This document shows positions 24,634-28,889 of a stretch of 61,562 nucleotides of DNA, in pieces (within the stretch, counting starts at the first letter, position 1; each line of letters starts with the position of its first letter). A program made the translations under genes and the position numbers. The DNA lies in assembly GCA_964522105.1 (NCBI GenBank), contig CAZFVA010000014.1:22677-84238 (forward strand), written 5' to 3'. The notes beneath the pieces are model-generated. The model was given only the letters and a program-made list of their open reading frames with translations. It did no database searches and was not told where the DNA came from. The stretch comes from an uncultured Anaeromyxobacteraceae bacterium. GTDB taxonomy: Bacteria > Myxococcota_A > UBA9042 > DTJE01.

Positions 24634-25788
24634 CTATTCCCCGATCCAGCCGCAGACTGAGTCCGATTCTGCCAGGCCGGATACGTCCGTGAAGGCTGTG
24701 CCGCAGAAGTGGGCGGACGGGCACCAGGCGCCGGCGGTCTGGCAGGTAAATTCGCATCGTTTTGTGCCTTCCGGGTTGGCTGGTTCGACGCAGCGCAGCG
24801 GCTCGGCGCAGTCTTCGTTGCACTGACATGGTTTGCGGGTGTTCTGGGCAAGTTTGAAGTCAGGGACGCAGGCCGAACCTTCGCATGAAAATCCTGATGG
24901 GCAATCGCCACCGTCGGTGCAGGCCGGTGTTCCGGGGTCGCAGTAATGGTCCAGCCCATCGTCCGCGCTTACGCACGATGCGCCACCGGAACAATCGGCG
25001 TTCACTTCGCATGGTCTGGCGCAGGCAGTGAAAGGTCCGACGAAGCCAGATCCACCAAGGCAGACGCCTTCTGTGCAGTCGCAGTCTTCGTCGCAGGGAA
25101 ATGCCCCTTCCGGGGTGCAACCGGTTTCAGGTGCCGTCGCAACTTCAAAGGCCAGCAGGTCGGCCCCGCCCGGTGTTTTGACGTGCCATGAACCGGCCGT
25201 TGTCGGCACAAATGCAATTATGCGGGAGTCCAGGAAGTCCGGGCCAAGGCAGAAGAAATTGATCTGGTCCCAGTTCCTGATTTGTAATGTGACAGTCCTT
25301 GCGATCTGGTCAACTGTTACAAGCGGCATCGCCCTCTGCTGGTTGCACGAGACCATTGCAAATGCCGTAAGGCGTGTCGTGCGGCCGACGTTCAGTGGCG
25401 CCGGGTCGGCAAGTTGAACGCTGTCTGCAGGCATGTCCAACAGTTGCCAGGTTTTGTTGCAGGCTGCCGTATCGGTGGTGACATCCGAAGATACGTCCGA
25501 CGGCGTTTCGTCATGCCCGTATGGGGTGTCGGCTGTGGCATCATCGGTGACGTCGGCCGCAACCGTATCTACGCCGGTGTCTGTCCATGTTTCCGCGGTT
25601 TCAGGGGTATCCTGTGCAACGTCCCGGCCCGCCGCATCTGTGTCTGCCAACGCATCCCGGCCAACGTAACCGTCCGGGGTCGTGCCCTGGTCGTCTTGTG
25701 TGACATCGCCGGCGTCGGTCGGCGATGACGATTTACACCCGATAGCGACCATTCCCACGAATAAAATGAAACAAATCGAGCGCTTCAT
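24634..25788 (-). CDS. Lipoprotein with Asp/Thr-rich tether, beta-sandwich-like middle domain and Cys-rich repeats
   Basis: Start moved to ATG at 25788; VAIGC lipobox; CDEDCDC, CEVNADC, CTDGGDCPSGFSC, CQCNEDC units. Confidence 0.7.
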   Translation of the reverse strand: MKRSICFILFVGMVAIGCKSSSPTDAGDVTQDDQGTTPDGYVGRDALADTDAAGRDVAQDTPETAETWTDTGVDTVAADVTDDATADTPYGHDETPSDVSSDVTTDTAACNKTWQLLDMPADSVQLADPAPLNVGRTTRLTAFAMVSCNQQRAMPLVTVDQIARTVTLQIRNWDQINFFCLGPDFLDSRIIAFVPTTAGSWHVKTPGGADLLAFEVATAPETGCTPEGAFPCDEDCDCTEGVCLGGSGFVGPFTACARPCEVNADCSGGASCVSADDGLDHYCDPGTPACTDGGDCPSGFSCEGSACVPDFKLAQNTRKPCQCNEDCAEPLRCVEPANPEGTKRCEFTCQTAGAWCPSAHFCGTAFTDVSGLAESDSVCGWIGE

Positions 25789-25916
25789 GTCATTTACCCG
25801 GTAAGTTTTCGTTGCTTTGATGATACACCGGTTTGTGAAGACAGGATTCAATTTTTGTTGGTCGCGATGTCGGTTGCAGTGGATAATCCGTTTGATTCAT
25901 TGACCTCGGGGATTTC

Positions 25917-27428
25917 ATGGTTGTGGACGCAAAGCAGACTACATCTGTCAGTTGGTTCGGGGTAGGCGACCTGAACGCGTTTTTTGCGCTGTTCGTGGAC
26001 AACGTCGTCAATCTGGTGATGCTGACCGCAATTCTGGTCTTTCAGTTCGGGATGCCGTCAGAATTCGTGTTGTCGCGCATGATCCCGGGGACCGCCCTGG
26101 GCGTGATGATCGGGGACCTGGCGTACTCGTGGATGGCGTGCAGGGGCGGGCGGCGACTGACCGCGATGCCGCTCGGGCTGGATACTCCTTCAACTATCGG
26201 CATGACGATTGCGGTCATCGGCCCCGTTTTCCTTGAAACGAAAGACCCGTACATGGCCTGGGGCGTCGGTATGGCGACGCTCTTCATCATGGGCGTGGCC
26301 AAACTGGTGATGTCGTTTTTTGGCGAGGCGATTGCGAAGGCTATTCCGATGGCCGGGCTTCTTGGTCCGCTTGCCGGGATCGGCCTTGCGCTGCTTGGCC
26401 TTATCCCGATGGTGCACATATTTTCAATGCCGGTCGCCGGAGTCTTTGCGACCGGGATCATTCTGTATGCGTTCGTGGCGAACCACAGGCTGCCGTTCGG
26501 CCTGCCGGGTGCGCTTGTCGCGGTCGTCATGGGCCTGATAATTTACTGGGTGATGGTTGCCGTCGGGATTGGTCCGCAGCATCAGGTGCAGACGGCCACT
26601 GTTGGACTGTACCTGCCGAAAATCGAGTTTGCAGCGCTGGCTGCCGGGATGTCCGGGGCTCTGAAATACCTGCCGATCAGCATTCCTTTCGGGCTGTTGA
26701 CTATTGTTGGCGGCATTAATGTTACGGCGTCCGCCAAAGCTGCCGGCGATGACTTCCGTACCCGTGACATCCTGCTGGTCGAGTCGGTCTCGACAATGAT
26801 TGCCGCCATTTGCGGTGGTGTCGCCCAGACGACGCCGTACATCGGGCATCCGGCCTACAAGGCGATGGGCGCGAAGGCCGGGTACACGCTGCTGACCGGA
26901 CTGGTCATCGGTATCGCCGGATTCCTGGGGATACTTGGCGTCCTGATTGACTACATTCCGCAGGTGGTTGTTGCCCCGATTCTGCTGTTCGTCGGGCTCA
27001 TGATTACCGAGCAGGCGTTCAAGGCGTCCGAGCAGCGTCACCTGCCGGCCGTGGCGTTCGCAATCATTCCGTGTCTTGCTTATCTGGTGATGATTTATGC
27101 CGGTCAGCTTCTTGGCGCCGGTGCGAAGCCCGGGCCGGTTCTGGCCGGTCAGCTTGGCGTGATGTCGCTTCTTGGTAACGGCTTCATCGTGACTTCCATG
27201 CTGTGGGCGGCCGCCATCGCGTACCTGATCGATAAGCGGCCGACCGCGACGTTCGTGATGTTTGCCATCCTGGCCGTGTGCAGCCTGTTCGGGATCATTC
27301 ATTCAGTGTCGCCAACGGGCAGTCTGTACCTGCCGTTTTCCAGTGCCGACAACCGCCCCCTGGAGCTTGCCGCCGCCTATCTGCTGACCGGCGGGTCACT
27401 CGCGTTTCTTTTGCGGTTTGTGAAATAA
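25917..27428 (+). CDS. NCS2-family (xanthine/uracil/AzgA-like) permease
   Basis: Many TM helices; GDLNAFF..F.DN, TAMPLGLDTPS, TTPYIGHPAYK. Confidence 0.8.
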   Translation: MVVDAKQTTSVSWFGVGDLNAFFALFVDNVVNLVMLTAILVFQFGMPSEFVLSRMIPGTALGVMIGDLAYSWMACRGGRRLTAMPLGLDTPSTIGMTIAVIGPVFLETKDPYMAWGVGMATLFIMGVAKLVMSFFGEAIAKAIPMAGLLGPLAGIGLALLGLIPMVHIFSMPVAGVFATGIILYAFVANHRLPFGLPGALVAVVMGLIIYWVMVAVGIGPQHQVQTATVGLYLPKIEFAALAAGMSGALKYLPISIPFGLLTIVGGINVTASAKAAGDDFRTRDILLVESVSTMIAAICGGVAQTTPYIGHPAYKAMGAKAGYTLLTGLVIGIAGFLGILGVLIDYIPQVVVAPILLFVGLMITEQAFKASEQRHLPAVAFAIIPCLAYLVMIYAGQLLGAGAKPGPVLAGQLGVMSLLGNGFIVTSMLWAAAIAYLIDKRPTATFVMFAILAVCSLFGIIHSVSPTGSLYLPFSSADNRPLELAAAYLLTGGSLAFLLRFVK

Positions 27429-27524
27429 CGACTTTTGGTCAGCTATCTTCACCCAAAAAAACACCCAGAATCACTCAAATTCCGTCAGTAAATATATTAA
27501 CTAAATTGCGGCGTTGCAGGCGCG

Positions 27525-27621
27525 TGATGTGATTAGGTGCCTTAATCACATCAAAATTTGATTTGATTAACGGGGCTATTCGCATCATAATCTGATGTGA
27601 TTAGGGTGGTTATTCACCTCA
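27525..27621. promoter_or_regulatory. Three tandem palindromic 11-7-11 operator-like sites at an exact 34-bp period
   Basis: 27525 TGATGTGATTA-GGTGCCT-TAATCACATCA (perfect); 27559 TGATTTGATTA-ACGGGGC-TATTCGCATCA; 27593 TGATGTGATTA-GGGTGGT-TATTCACCTCA; 5-bp gaps. Confidence 0.85.
27563..27591 (+). promoter_or_regulatory. Putative sigma70 promoter of the Fic gene, overlapping site 2
   Basis: TTGATT (27563-27568), 17 nt, CATAAT (27586-27591). Confidence 0.6.
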
Positions 27622-27637
27622 AGCCGCGGAGTCCGGT

Positions 27638-28759
27638 ATGAAAACAAAGTATGTCTGGCAAAGTCCGTCATGGCCCAATTTCACCTGGGATGCCACCGCT
27701 ATTGCCGCGCCGCTGTCCAGTGTGCGGCTTGCGCAGGCGCACCTTCTTGGCAAGGTTGCCGGTCTTGGTTTTGAGCTTCATCTTTCCGAGCGTGTTCGTG
27801 TCATGACCGAGGAGGCCGTCCGGACCAGCGCCATCGAAGGTGAAATGCTGAATCTGGAAGCAGTCCGTTCGTCGGTCGCCAGACGGTTGGGGCTTGATAA
27901 CGTTCCTGACAAACCGGCTTCGCGCGATGTTGAAGGGCTGATTGATGTTCTGATCGATGCGACAACCGGGTTTGACAGGCCGTTGACCGCCGACCGGTTA
28001 TGCCGCTGGCATGGGGCGCTGTTCCCGGGGGGCCGTTCGGGTTTGTACGAGATTGTAGCCGGTGATTTTCGTCCAGCCGGTATGCCGATGCAGGTAGTTT
28101 CGGGACCAATCGGGCATGAACGCGTTCATTTCGAGGCGCCGCCGTCCGAAGTGGTTCCGGCCGAGATTCAGAAGTTTGTGGATTGGTTCAATAATCCGCC
28201 GAAAGGCCTTGATGGACTGATTGTCGCGGGTATCGTTCATTTCTGGTTTGTAACGATTCATCCGTTTCAGGACGGTAACGGTCGCCTTGGGCGGGCCGTG
28301 TGCGAGATGGCCCTGGCAAGGGACGAAGGGCAAGAACAAAGGCTTTATAGTCTTTCTGCCGCCATCAAAGCGGACCGGCCGGAGTATTACCGTCTTCTGG
28401 AAAAAACGTCTAAAGACACTGGCGACCTGACGTCCTGGCTGACCTGGTTTCTGAAGTGCCTGGAAAAGGCGATGCAGATGTCCGAGATCCAGATTGACCT
28501 CGCACTCGCGCAAGGGCGTTTCTGGCAGGAACACGCCGGAAAGTCCCTGAATGAACGCCAGATCAAGATAGTCCGTCGTCTGTTTGAAGCCGGTCCTGAC
28601 GGTTTCACCGGCGGAATGACAACGAAGAAGGCGGCCAACCTTACGAAAGCCAGTTCCGCCACCGCCCAGCGCGACCTGTCAGACCTGTTTGCCAAGGGCC
28701 TGCTGGTCCAAAACGCTGCAGGTGGCAGAAGCACCAGTTACAGCCTTAAAACTGTTTGA
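27638..28759 (+). CDS. Fic-family protein (DUF4172-like N-terminus, class II autoinhibited Fic, C-terminal HTH)
   Basis: YVWQSPSWPNFTWD N-terminus; TSAIEG inhibitory motif; HPFQDGNGRLGR canonical Fic motif; TTKKAANLTKASSATAQRDLSDL HTH. Confidence 0.93.
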   Translation: MKTKYVWQSPSWPNFTWDATAIAAPLSSVRLAQAHLLGKVAGLGFELHLSERVRVMTEEAVRTSAIEGEMLNLEAVRSSVARRLGLDNVPDKPASRDVEGLIDVLIDATTGFDRPLTADRLCRWHGALFPGGRSGLYEIVAGDFRPAGMPMQVVSGPIGHERVHFEAPPSEVVPAEIQKFVDWFNNPPKGLDGLIVAGIVHFWFVTIHPFQDGNGRLGRAVCEMALARDEGQEQRLYSLSAAIKADRPEYYRLLEKTSKDTGDLTSWLTWFLKCLEKAMQMSEIQIDLALAQGRFWQEHAGKSLNERQIKIVRRLFEAGPDGFTGGMTTKKAANLTKASSATAQRDLSDLFAKGLLVQNAAGGRSTSYSLKTV

Positions 28760-28889
28760 AAAAGTGTACCTGCGTCCGATCGTGCGTACAGTCCTCGCTT
28801 ACGCCACTTCCCATCTTCAATATCAGTGATAAACTGCGTGCAGCCTGAAGAGGGCGGTGTTTGGTCTGGTTATTTGACGGAGAGTTCAG

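What the first reader, a model, noticed from the sequence alone, without database searches (positions are those of the whole stretch)
27525..28759. Triple palindromic array at an exact 34-bp period over the promoter of an HTH-bearing Fic enzyme
Seen: three 29-bp sites (consensus TGATGTGATTA-N7-TAWTCACATCA) starting at 27525, 27559 and 27593. Arms are conserved and the 7-nt cores differ. Site 2 overlaps a TTGATT-17-CATAAT promoter and site 3 covers the likely transcription start, ending 16 nt before the ATG. The Fic protein has an intact catalytic motif, a TSAIEG autoinhibitory motif and a C-terminal HTH. Established: class II Fic proteins are intramolecularly inhibited AMPylases. Inference: the enzyme binds its own array cooperatively, coupling DNA binding or oligomerisation to AMPylation and autorepression, as a single-gene toxin or stress module. 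Alternative: 11-7-11 geometry also resembles tyrosine-recombinase sites that could have delivered the gene. I do not recall a description of this array.
Basis: partly seen in the sequence, partly recalled or inferred. Interest (0 to 1): 0.72.

Follow-up and report, generated by a model that had tools for sequence, protein, structure and literature searches.

The report
Self-operator of a DNA-binding Fic enzyme
Three palindromes in front of a Fic (AMP-transferring) enzyme gene are very probably the enzyme's own binding sites for shutting off its own promoter; self-repression is already known for related Fic enzymes, but here the same site layout turns up across many bacterial phyla, with the site sequence changing in step with the protein's DNA-reading helix.

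Summary
Three 29-bp sites (11-7-11, TGATGTGATTA arms) start at 27525, 27559 and 27593, exactly 34 bp apart. None is expected by chance, and paired sites occur nowhere else in the 3.3-Mb assembly. They cover the only sigma-70-like promoter (TTGATT-17-CATAAT) and end 16 nt before the ATG of a 373-aa DUF4172-Fic-wHTH protein. That protein is about 46-50% identical to Coxiella CbFic2 (PDB 8CIL).

The interpretation (an operator bound by the gene's own product) is well supported by comparison. Among 79 homologue loci from many phyla, 67% carry a strong palindrome or a chain of at least 3 arms upstream, against 1.6% of control windows. Arms alternate in orientation with 7- and 5-nt spacers. No neighbouring gene is conserved. 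Arm sequence tracks the recognition-helix residues 340, 341 and 344, and some pairings recur in separate branches of the tree.

The tyrosine-recombinase alternative is not supported. A same-genus relative has an empty permease-glpK junction without any site, and there is no recombinase gene.

The concept is not new: CccR is a footprinted autorepressor, SoFic binds its own promoter, and CbFic2 activity is switched by DNA. I found no description of the family-wide operator layout or of the residue-to-base correspondence. Binding and repression remain untested. Verdict: a new member of a known kind, with useful new detail.

The parts
27525..27553 (.). Operator site 1 (arms 27525-27535 and 27543-27553). 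It is a perfect 11-7-11 palindrome, and clade relatives have only its right arm.
   Evidence: Relatives L115, L117 and L119 have only the inverted arm at about the equivalent position, -95 or -92 from the start. The simple scan also flags it as terminator-like.
27559..27587 (.). Operator site 2 (arms 27559-27569 and 27577-27587). It spans the predicted -35 box and the start of the -10 box. It corresponds to the first palindrome of clade relatives.
   Evidence: It sits in the same register (-79/-61 from the start codon) as in L114-L119. The G-to-T change in arm 3 creates TTGATT.
27593..27621 (.). Operator site 3 (arms 27593-27603 and 27611-27621). It covers the predicted transcription start and the early leader.
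   Evidence: Same register (-45/-27) as in clade relatives. The start site is inferred to lie about 7 nt after the -10 box.
27563..27591 (+). Predicted sigma-70-type promoter, TTGATT-17-CATAAT.
   Evidence: a consensus match only.
27627..27630 (+). Shine-Dalgarno GGAG, 7 nt before the ATG.
   Evidence: Read from the sequence. GGAG occupies the same place in clade relatives.
27638..28759 (+). Class II Fic enzyme gene (373 aa): DUF4172, Fic domain and C-terminal winged helix.
   Evidence: Pfam. PDB 8CIL (CbFic2) by phmmer, E 7e-108. AlphaFold2 model with pLDDT 89.5. Foldseek TM-score 0.87-0.92 to 8CIL. PADLOC SoFic model, E 1e-48.
27824..27841 (+). Inhibitory motif TSAIEG (residues 63-68), of the form (S/T)xxxE(G/N).
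   Evidence: E67 and G68 are invariant in the alignment. The motif is identical to that of CbFic2 (PMC10628234).
28259..28294 (+). Fic catalytic motif HPFQDGNGRLGR (residues 208-219).
   Evidence: H208, P209, F210, D212, G213, N214, G215, R216 and R219 are invariant.
28553..28747 (+). Winged helix-turn-helix (residues 306-370). The recognition helix is residues 340-352 (nt 28655-28693), beginning SATAQRDL.
   Evidence: Secondary structure of the model. Residues 340, 341 and 344 co-vary with arm bases 3 and 5.
27430..28800 (.). Approximate extent of the inserted one-gene cassette (leader, array, fic and a short tail) between the permease and glpK.
   Evidence: Relatives have permease and glpK adjacent, 73 bp apart in same-genus G002. 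Similarity to the ancestral intergenic region resumes near 28800 by eye; the BLAST alignment itself resumes at 28875.

Best explanation
The array is the autoregulatory operator of the Fic gene that follows it. Each 11-bp arm (TGATGTGATTA) is read by the C-terminal winged helix of one Fic subunit. The protein is expected to dimerise through helix alpha-1 of DUF4172, as its solved relative CbFic2 does. A dimer would then occupy each 11-7-11 palindrome, and up to three dimers would fill six alternately oriented arms.

The arms span the region from upstream of the -35 box, across the -10 box, to about +24. RNA polymerase would therefore be excluded once a few molecules have been made, which keeps a potentially toxic AMPylase at a very low copy number.

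The cassette (operator plus gene) is a mobile one-gene unit inserted between a permease gene and glpK.

Shown here: the sites, their uniqueness in the genome, their conservation with the gene family, and their co-variation with the helix. Inferred: binding, repression rather than activation, stoichiometry, and any link between DNA binding and enzyme activity.
For: 1. The sites are real, not chance, and unique in the genome.

2. They overlap the only promoter-like element, and the last arm ends 16 nt before the ATG.

3. Family-wide conservation. With 10-nt arms and a 9-nt spacer at no more than 1 mismatch, 44/79 upstream regions score against 38/1958 control windows, and only odd spacers are enriched. 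A strong pair or a chain of at least 3 arms is found in 67% of upstream regions against 1.6% of controls. Chains of at least 3 arms are found in 40.5% against 0.1%.

4. In the window's own clade (53-64% amino-acid identity, unrelated neighbours) the arms sit in the same register from the start codon (-79, -61, -45, -27). Arms carry 1.47 bits per column, against 0.66 in spacers and 0.47 in gaps.

5. No neighbouring gene is shared by more than 3 of 79 loci, so Fic is the only constant candidate trans-factor.

6. Specificity co-variation. Arm base 3 (A or C) against residue 341 (A or D) gives a mutual information of 0.98 bit. Arm base 5 against residues 340 and 344 gives 0.91-0.93 bit. A partial Mantel test of arm against helix, given the rest of the protein, gives r = 0.24, p = 0.0005.

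7. On a tree built without the HTH, pairings recur in separate branches:
- SKDTAI with TGCGAC (L017 versus L058, L060, L066)
- SHDTAL with TGCGTAG (L040 versus L020, L025)
- SRATAY with TGAAGCG (L073, L031, L055)
- loss of D341 together with C3-to-A (L042, L062)

8. Residues 340, 341 and 344 lie at the N-terminal end of the predicted recognition helix.

9. Published relatives behave this way. CccR is footprinted, represses its own promoter and needs its dimer (PMC9755527). SoFic binds the first 100 bp upstream of its gene, and only as a dimer (bioRxiv 10.64898/2026.07.09.737422). CbFic2 binds DNA through its HTH, and affinity rises from 20-bp to 60-bp DNA (PMC10628234).
Against: - There is no binding, footprint, transcript or reporter data for this protein.
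- Co-variation is partly confounded by shared descent. The control segment (the wing) also gives a significant partial Mantel result (r = 0.19, p = 0.0025), so the argument rests mainly on the recurrent pairings. Those depend on a FastTree topology whose support values I did not inspect.
- CbFic2, the closest studied relative, bound random DNA with nanomolar affinity, so sequence specificity in this subfamily is unproven.
- In clade relatives the -10-like hexamer lies at the junction of spacer and arm 4. In the window that position reads GCTATT, so the real promoter and start site are uncertain.
- Most homologues have an odd number of arms (right, left, right). A simple rule of one dimer per palindrome does not explain that.
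Confidence: 0.8

Rival explanations
1. The operator is more than a repressor site: it is also the allosteric platform of the enzyme. Specific DNA holds the few Fic molecules as dimers in the inhibited or deAMPylating state, so the chromosomal array acts as a DNA 'antitoxin'. Loss of binding would then release AMPylation. Triggers could be phage infection, damage, dilution, or copying of the cassette.
For: In CbFic2, DNA-induced dimerisation switches AMPylation to deAMPylation (PMC10628234). Six arms next to a tightly self-limited gene would match a very low copy number. The protein matches the PADLOC SoFic defence model over its full length (E 1e-48). The family is patchy among relatives and sits on 459 plasmids. 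Paired sites exist only at this locus.
Against: Nothing in the sequence distinguishes this from plain autorepression. For EcSofic, dimerisation is required for toxicity (PMC12249575). For SoFic and CccR, mutations in the dimer interface do not affect AMPylation or enhance it, as summarised in the SoFic preprint. The direction of the switch therefore differs between relatives. The neighbours here are housekeeping genes, not a defence island.
Confidence: 0.12
2. The palindromes are bound by a different host regulator, and the Fic HTH has another role, such as non-specific DNA tethering.
For: CbFic2 bound random DNA with high affinity (PMC10628234). The arm contains TGTGA, which looks superficially like a CRP half-site.
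Against: The layout follows the gene through many phyla and onto plasmids, with no conserved neighbouring gene. The arm sequence changes with the Fic recognition helix. The genome has no other paired site, as a host regulator with a regulon would need. The TGTGA-N13-TCACA spacing is not the CRP spacing (N6).
Confidence: 0.04
3. The repeats act as RNA or at the DNA-structure level, either as leader hairpins or as a terminator for the upstream permease gene, rather than as protein-binding sites.
For: Site 1 is flagged as terminator-like: a 13-pair stem followed by AAAATTTGATT. It lies about 100 nt after the permease stop codon. Any palindrome can fold as a hairpin.
Against: Of 103 mismatched positions in family palindromes, 65 are neither G:U-type nor A:C-type. 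G:U-type mismatches (25) are not strongly favoured over A:C-type (13). Unpaired third arms are common. Sites 1 and 2 lie upstream of the predicted start site. -10-like hexamers are embedded in the proximal palindromes of relatives. A secondary insulating role for site 1 is not excluded.
Confidence: 0.03
4. The 11-7-11 sites are core sites of a tyrosine recombinase that delivered the gene.
For: The geometry resembles dif or lox-type sites. The cassette is an insertion relative to a same-genus genome.
Against: There is no recombinase gene in or beside the insert. Sites lie on one side of the insert only. The empty junction in G002 has no arm-like sequence. Across the family the arrays keep a fixed register to the start codon and embed promoter elements.
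Confidence: 0.01

Closest known systems
CbFic2 (Coxiella burnetii CBU_0822, PDB 8CIL; PMC10628234)
   Same: Same architecture: DUF4172 with TSAIEG, a Fic motif and a C-terminal HTH. phmmer E 7e-108, Foldseek TM-score 0.87-0.92 at 44-46% identity. It binds DNA through the HTH, and DNA-induced dimerisation changes its activity.
   Different: CbFic2 was studied only with random DNA, and its authors left open whether a specific motif exists. It is discussed as a host-directed enzyme acting on histone H3. The window's protein sits in an environmental bacterium with a defined candidate operator. I did not fetch or inspect the promoter of CbFic2.
CccR (Yersinia pseudotuberculosis YPK_0951, PDB 7XUX; PMC9755527)
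   Same: A class II Fic with a C-terminal HTH. It forms a dimer and represses its own promoter by binding inverted repeats near the -35 and -10 boxes. The same logic is inferred here.
   Different: It is only distantly related (E 1e-5). Its operator is 10-N26-10, not alternating 11-bp arms with 7- and 5-nt spacers. It is secreted by a type VI system and regulates further genes. Here no other paired sites exist in the genome.
SoFic / EcSofic (Shewanella oneidensis SO_4266; the 'SoFic' one-gene anti-phage system; bioRxiv 10.64898/2026.07.09.737422, PMC12249575)
   Same: A Fic-wHTH dimer formed through the N-terminal helix. SoFic binds the first 100 bp upstream of its own start codon. The PADLOC SoFic model matches the window's protein over its full length (E 1e-48).
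   Different: Identity is 18-19% in the structural alignment. The NCBIfam SoFic equivalog scores 57 bits against a cut-off of 550. No motif has been defined for SoFic. EcSofic has a 47-aa downstream antitoxin, AS1, whereas no credible small ORF exists here.
Type II toxin-antitoxin autoregulation (for example Phd/Doc)
   Same: A toxic Fic/Doc-fold enzyme is kept low by repression at palindromes over its own promoter.
   Different: Here there is no separate antitoxin. The DNA-binding domain and the inhibitory helix are both parts of the enzyme polypeptide.

Membership tests
Class II Fic enzyme of the DUF4172-Fic-wHTH (CbFic2-like) type | Fic catalytic motif HxFx(D/E)GNGRxxR | tested here: met
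   HPFQDGNGRLGR at residues 208-219. Pfam Fic domain, E 9e-16.
Class II Fic enzyme of the DUF4172-Fic-wHTH (CbFic2-like) type | [quoted passage not shown] | tested here: met
   TSAIEG at residues 63-68, inside DUF4172 (E 1e-29). E67 and G68 are invariant.
Class II Fic enzyme of the DUF4172-Fic-wHTH (CbFic2-like) type | [quoted passage not shown] | tested here: met
   AlphaFold2 model with pLDDT 89.5, helices at 306-317, 329-336 and 340-352, plus two wing strands. Foldseek to 8CIL: E 9e-31, TM-score 0.87-0.92.
Class II Fic enzyme of the DUF4172-Fic-wHTH (CbFic2-like) type | AMPylation/deAMPylation activity and dimerisation through helix alpha-1 | not testable with these tools
   Needs biochemistry. 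Only a monomer model was made.
Self-repressing Fic-HTH regulators (CccR type) | Inverted repeats overlapping the -35/-10 region of the enzyme's own promoter | tested here: met
   Site 2 overlaps TTGATT-17-CATAAT and site 3 overlaps the predicted start. The promoter is a consensus prediction only.
Self-repressing Fic-HTH regulators (CccR type) | The protein's own HTH binds those repeats and represses transcription | not testable with these tools
   Indirect support only: family-wide conservation and arm-to-helix co-variation.
Self-repressing Fic-HTH regulators (CccR type) | Operator geometry of 10-bp boxes separated by 26 bp | tested here: not met
   Here the geometry is 11-7-11 units with 5-nt gaps. 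A second Fic-wHTH paralogue in the same genome does show 11-N26-11.
SoFic anti-phage defence system | Match to the family profile | tested here: inconclusive
   PADLOC model PDLC03963 matches at E 1e-48 over residues 14-370. The NCBIfam SoFic equivalog scores 57 bits against a cut-off of 550.
SoFic anti-phage defence system | Protection against phage, or a defence-island context | tested here: inconclusive
   The phenotype cannot be tested here. The neighbours are ssb, a permease and glpK. In one relative the flanking genes are an MmeI-type methyltransferase; in another, HEPN/nucleotidyltransferase genes.
Tyrosine-recombinase core sites / integrative cassette | A recombinase gene nearby, with a site copy at both cassette ends or at the empty target | tested here: not met
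   No such ORF. The array lies on one side only. The empty junction in G002 lacks any arm.
Two-gene toxin-antitoxin module | An adjacent small antitoxin gene | tested here: not met
   There are no credible small ORFs in 27429-27637 or 28760-28889. No neighbour is conserved across 79 loci.

The most novel reading that the evidence does not exclude
DUF4172-Fic-wHTH enzymes carry a portable recognition code: recognition-helix residues 340, 341 and 344 set arm bases 3-6. Each enzyme would thus be tied to its own private array of alternating arms. That array would act both as the autorepression operator and as the DNA cofactor that holds the few enzyme molecules in the inactive or deAMPylating dimer, a 'DNA antitoxin' for a one-gene toxin or defence module.
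Probability: 0.2. Interest if true: 0.7.

Novelty: new member of a known kind. Interest (0 to 1): 0.5.

Why it matters
Fic enzymes with a C-terminal winged helix are widespread. More than 7,900 close homologues were scored, and the family sits on 459 plasmids. They are being studied as toxins, as effectors and as the 'SoFic' phage-defence genes.

Three papers show that such enzymes bind DNA. Only CccR has a defined site, and the authors of the closest relative (CbFic2) left open whether a specific motif exists.

The comparison made here supplies a concrete, testable operator layout for the CbFic2-like subfamily: 11-bp arms beginning TG, alternating in orientation, with spacers of 7 and 5 nt and a 34-bp period, often with the -10 box embedded. 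It also supplies a candidate residue-to-base correspondence.

That makes three experiments direct:
- Does specific DNA, rather than random DNA, control the AMPylation/deAMPylation switch?
- How many subunits load on two, three or six arms?
- Can specificity be swapped by changing three residues?

For this genome, the finding explains a 1.4-kb insertion as a self-limiting one-gene cassette.

Tried and rejected
- **Recombinase sites.** Rejected.
- **RNA hairpins.** The mismatch spectrum is not wobble-biased, and unpaired third arms are common.
- **A wider regulon.** No other paired site exists in the assembly. The assembly is 92% complete, so a missed site is possible.
- **A conserved partner gene or antitoxin.** None was found.
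- **Close relatives for fine footprinting.** Apart from the window's own protein, nothing above 64% identity exists among 5.8 billion proteins. The footprint therefore uses relatives at 53-64% identity.
- **My first arm-chain count (76 of 79 loci).** I discarded it as evidence, because the lenient threshold of 8 matches in 11 fires in 46% of control windows. Only the stringent figures are used.
- **Phage carriage.** None was found.
- **Earlier scan notes near this place.** They concern other genes and did not bear on this finding.
- **Helical phasing.** Centre-to-centre distances are 18 bp within a palindrome and 16 bp across a gap. CccR's recognition helices are reported 70 Å apart, about 20 bp. 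This suggests that one alpha-1 dimer could span one palindrome. I could not model a dimer on DNA, so this remains a loose inference.
Full report
**1. What is there**

The intergenic region between a 503-aa permease-like ORF (25917-27428) and a 373-aa ORF (27638-28759) holds three 29-bp units starting at 27525, 27559 and 27593. Each unit consists of two 11-bp arms in inverted orientation around a 7-nt spacer. Units are separated by 5 nt, which gives an exact 34-bp period.

Unit 1 is a perfect palindrome, TGATGTGATTA-N7-TAATCACATCA. Units 2 and 3 differ from it at 3 and 2 arm positions, and the spacers are unrelated. No match at up to 3 mismatches arose in 100 dinucleotide-preserving shuffles of the window.

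In the whole 3.3-Mb assembly (92% complete) the pattern is found only here. A weight-matrix scan for arm pairs, in both the 7-spaced and the 5-spaced configuration, scores 34-39 bits at this locus. The next best place scores 17.7 bits.

**2. Promoter context**

The only plus-strand sigma-70-like match next to the gene is TTGATT (27563-27568)-17-CATAAT (27586-27591). The -35 box lies inside arm 3, and the G-to-T deviation of that arm is what creates TTGATT. The -10 box spans the end of arm 4 and the 5-nt gap.

A start about 7 nt downstream of the -10 box would fall in arm 5. Unit 3 ends 16 nt before the ATG, and GGAG sits at 27627-27630. These are consensus predictions.

**3. The protein**

Pfam finds DUF4172 (E 1e-29) and Fic (E 9e-16). 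The catalytic motif HPFQDGNGRLGR and the inhibitory motif TSAIEG are intact and conserved.

The best solved relative is 8CIL, Coxiella CbFic2, with phmmer E 7e-108. An AlphaFold2 model (pLDDT 89.5) superposes on 8CIL with a TM-score of 0.87-0.92. The model shows a C-terminal winged helix whose recognition helix spans residues 340-352.

The PADLOC profile for the one-gene 'SoFic' defence system matches the whole protein at E 1e-48. The NCBIfam SoFic equivalog is far below its cut-off. The protein is therefore a CbFic2-like member of the wider Fic-wHTH group, not an orthologue of SoFic.

**4. Is the array tied to the gene family?**

Yes. Among relatives of this genome the gene is patchy: 11 of 41 genomes have it, at no more than 62% identity. 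Each copy I read nevertheless had similar palindromes upstream, with different arm sequences.

In 79 homologue loci from many phyla, 10-nt arms with a 9-nt spacer (the same as 11-7-11) at no more than 1 mismatch occur in 44 upstream regions. They occur in 38 of 1958 control windows from the same loci. Only odd spacers are enriched, as expected for one shared palindrome centre.

With a chain finder, a strong pair or a chain of at least 3 arms occurs in 67% of upstream regions against 1.6% of controls. Chains of at least 3 arms occur in 40.5% against 0.1%. The lenient threshold of 8 matches in 11 is uninformative, with 46% false positives, so I do not use the '76 of 79' count.

The common layouts are two triplets (right, 7 nt, left, 5 nt, right) about 54 bp apart, or two palindromes 34 or 44 bp apart. 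The last arm abuts the ribosome-binding site or the start codon. The same layout appears on the C. metallidurans CH34 megaplasmid, S. meliloti pB and a Sphingomonas plasmid.

**5. The window's own clade**

Apart from the window's own protein, the nearest proteins among 5.8 billion are only 57-64% identical. Six of their contigs, plus three genomes, have unrelated neighbouring genes. Even so, the arms keep the same register from the start codon: -79, -61, -45 and -27. These correspond to the window's units 2 and 3. Three of the six contigs also have a lone inverted arm near -95.

Across 8 loci, arms carry 1.47 bits per column, against 0.66 in spacers and 0.47 in gaps. The window differs in having a complete third palindrome upstream. 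It is the only contiguous six-arm chain among the 79 loci.

In the relatives a -10-like TATAAT, CATAAT or TACAAT hexamer sits at the junction of spacer and arm 4. The window has GCTATT at that position, and its CATAAT lies about 10 nt downstream. The promoter has therefore shifted, or the prediction is wrong.

**6. Who binds?**

No neighbouring gene family is shared by more than 3 of the 79 loci. There is no credible small ORF beside the window's gene. The only constant protein is Fic itself.

Arm sequence tracks the recognition helix:
- SATAQ goes with TGA(T/G)GTGATT.
- CS(Q/P)DTAL goes with TGCGGnGA.
- CSHDTAL goes with TGCGTAG.
- CSKDTAI goes with TGCGAC.
- SKATAT goes with TGAGCCG.
- SRATAT goes with TGAGTTATAG.
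- SRATAY goes with TGAAGCG.

Mutual information is 0.98 bit between arm base 3 and residue 341. It is 0.91-0.93 bit between arm base 5 and residues 340 and 344.

Shared descent inflates such numbers. The partial Mantel test controlling for the rest of the protein is significant for the helix (r = 0.24, p = 0.0005). It is also significant for the wing segment used as a comparison (r = 0.19, p = 0.0025).

The stronger argument is recurrence. On a tree built from residues 5-300, without the HTH, the pairings SKDTAI/TGCGAC, SHDTAL/TGCGTAG and SRATAY/TGAAGCG each appear in separate branches. The change of D341 to A or P, together with C3 to A, also appears in separate branches. The helix lies at the 3' end of the gene and the operator lies upstream of its 5' end. 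Their joint change is therefore hard to explain without a functional link.

**7. Alternatives**

*RNA structure.* Of 103 mismatched arm positions, 65 are neither G:U-type nor A:C-type. G:U-type mismatches (25) only modestly exceed A:C-type (13). Unpaired third arms are frequent. Unit 1 is flagged as terminator-like and might additionally insulate the cassette from read-through.

*Recombinase sites.* The ancestral order ssb-permease-glpK is kept in relatives. In same-genus G002 the permease-glpK gap is 73 bp and contains no arm. The window's insert (about 27430-28800) has no recombinase gene and has sites on one side only.

*A host regulator.* This does not fit the lack of other sites or the co-variation with the Fic helix.

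**8. What is already known**

CccR of Y. pseudotuberculosis is a Fic-HTH dimer. It represses its own promoter through a footprinted AGATAATCAT-N26-ATGATAATCT site (PMC9755527). Dimeric SoFic binds the first 100 bp upstream of its own gene, and no motif has been defined (bioRxiv 10.64898/2026.07.09.737422).

CbFic2 binds DNA through its HTH, and binds longer DNA better. DNA-induced dimerisation switches it towards deAMPylation. Only random DNA was used, and the authors discuss that a specific motif may exist (PMC10628234). EcSofic is a toxic dimer with a downstream antitoxin (PMC12249575).

Searches for DUF4172, for wHTH Fic enzymes and for related terms returned no description of this operator layout. 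These searches cover open-access papers and bioRxiv only.

**9. Verdict**

What I found no description of is the following:
- the conserved layout of alternating arms in the CbFic2-like subfamily;
- the candidate residue-to-base correspondence;
- the six-arm version in this window.

Binding, repression, stoichiometry and any link to enzyme activity remain to be tested. Most homologues have odd arm numbers, which a rule of one dimer per palindrome does not explain.

Noticed in passing
L005 1136-1217 (own genome, contig C2, about 124.5 kb); gene ATG near L005:1253: A second Fic-wHTH gene in the same genome (28% identical, SSTRIEG and HPFQDGNGR motifs) has its own, different array just upstream. 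It reads ATACCCACAAA-N26-TTTGTGGGTAT, with further box copies at 1136 and 1207. The 26-bp spacer equals that of the footprinted CccR operator.
   Followed up: partly
window 24634-25851 (- strand): A 405-aa Cys-rich, lipoprotein-like ORF lies between ssb and the permease. In relatives ssb and the permease are directly adjacent, so this looks like a second insertion at the same conserved ssb-permease-glpK locus.
   Followed up: partly
window 25917-27428: The 503-aa multi-pass membrane ORF next to the array has no Pfam or NCBIfam match. It is nevertheless conserved (50-74% identity) and syntenic with ssb and glpK across the family.
   Followed up: no
L008 (G004, same genus), upstream of its fic: A 53%-identical Fic also lies directly upstream of glpK in a same-genus genome. 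It has one intact palindrome plus a collapsed, spacer-less remnant (TGATGTGATAATCAAATCGA) upstream. Its downstream arms have decayed, which suggests turnover of arms at a shared insertion site.
   Followed up: partly
window 28756-28848: A 30-aa TTG-initiated ORF overlaps the fic stop codon (TTGA). EcSofic has a 47-aa downstream antitoxin, but this ORF runs into sequence homologous to the ancestral permease-glpK spacer and is probably spurious.
   Followed up: partly
proximal palindromes of homologue loci (for example L012, L031, L115, L118): The last two spacer bases plus the first four arm bases form YATAAT in 23 of 39 promoter-proximal palindromes, against 8 of 26 distal ones. In some TGCGGAG-type loci the third arm contains GGAG at Shine-Dalgarno distance from the start codon. 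Operator, -10 box and ribosome-binding site are thus interleaved.
   Followed up: partly
plasmid collection: Homologues at 48-50% identity occur on 459 plasmid records (113 conjugative, 60 mobilizable). They are frequent in Pantoea, Phaeobacter, Agrobacterium and Ralstonia. None occurs in 50,697 phage records.
   Followed up: no
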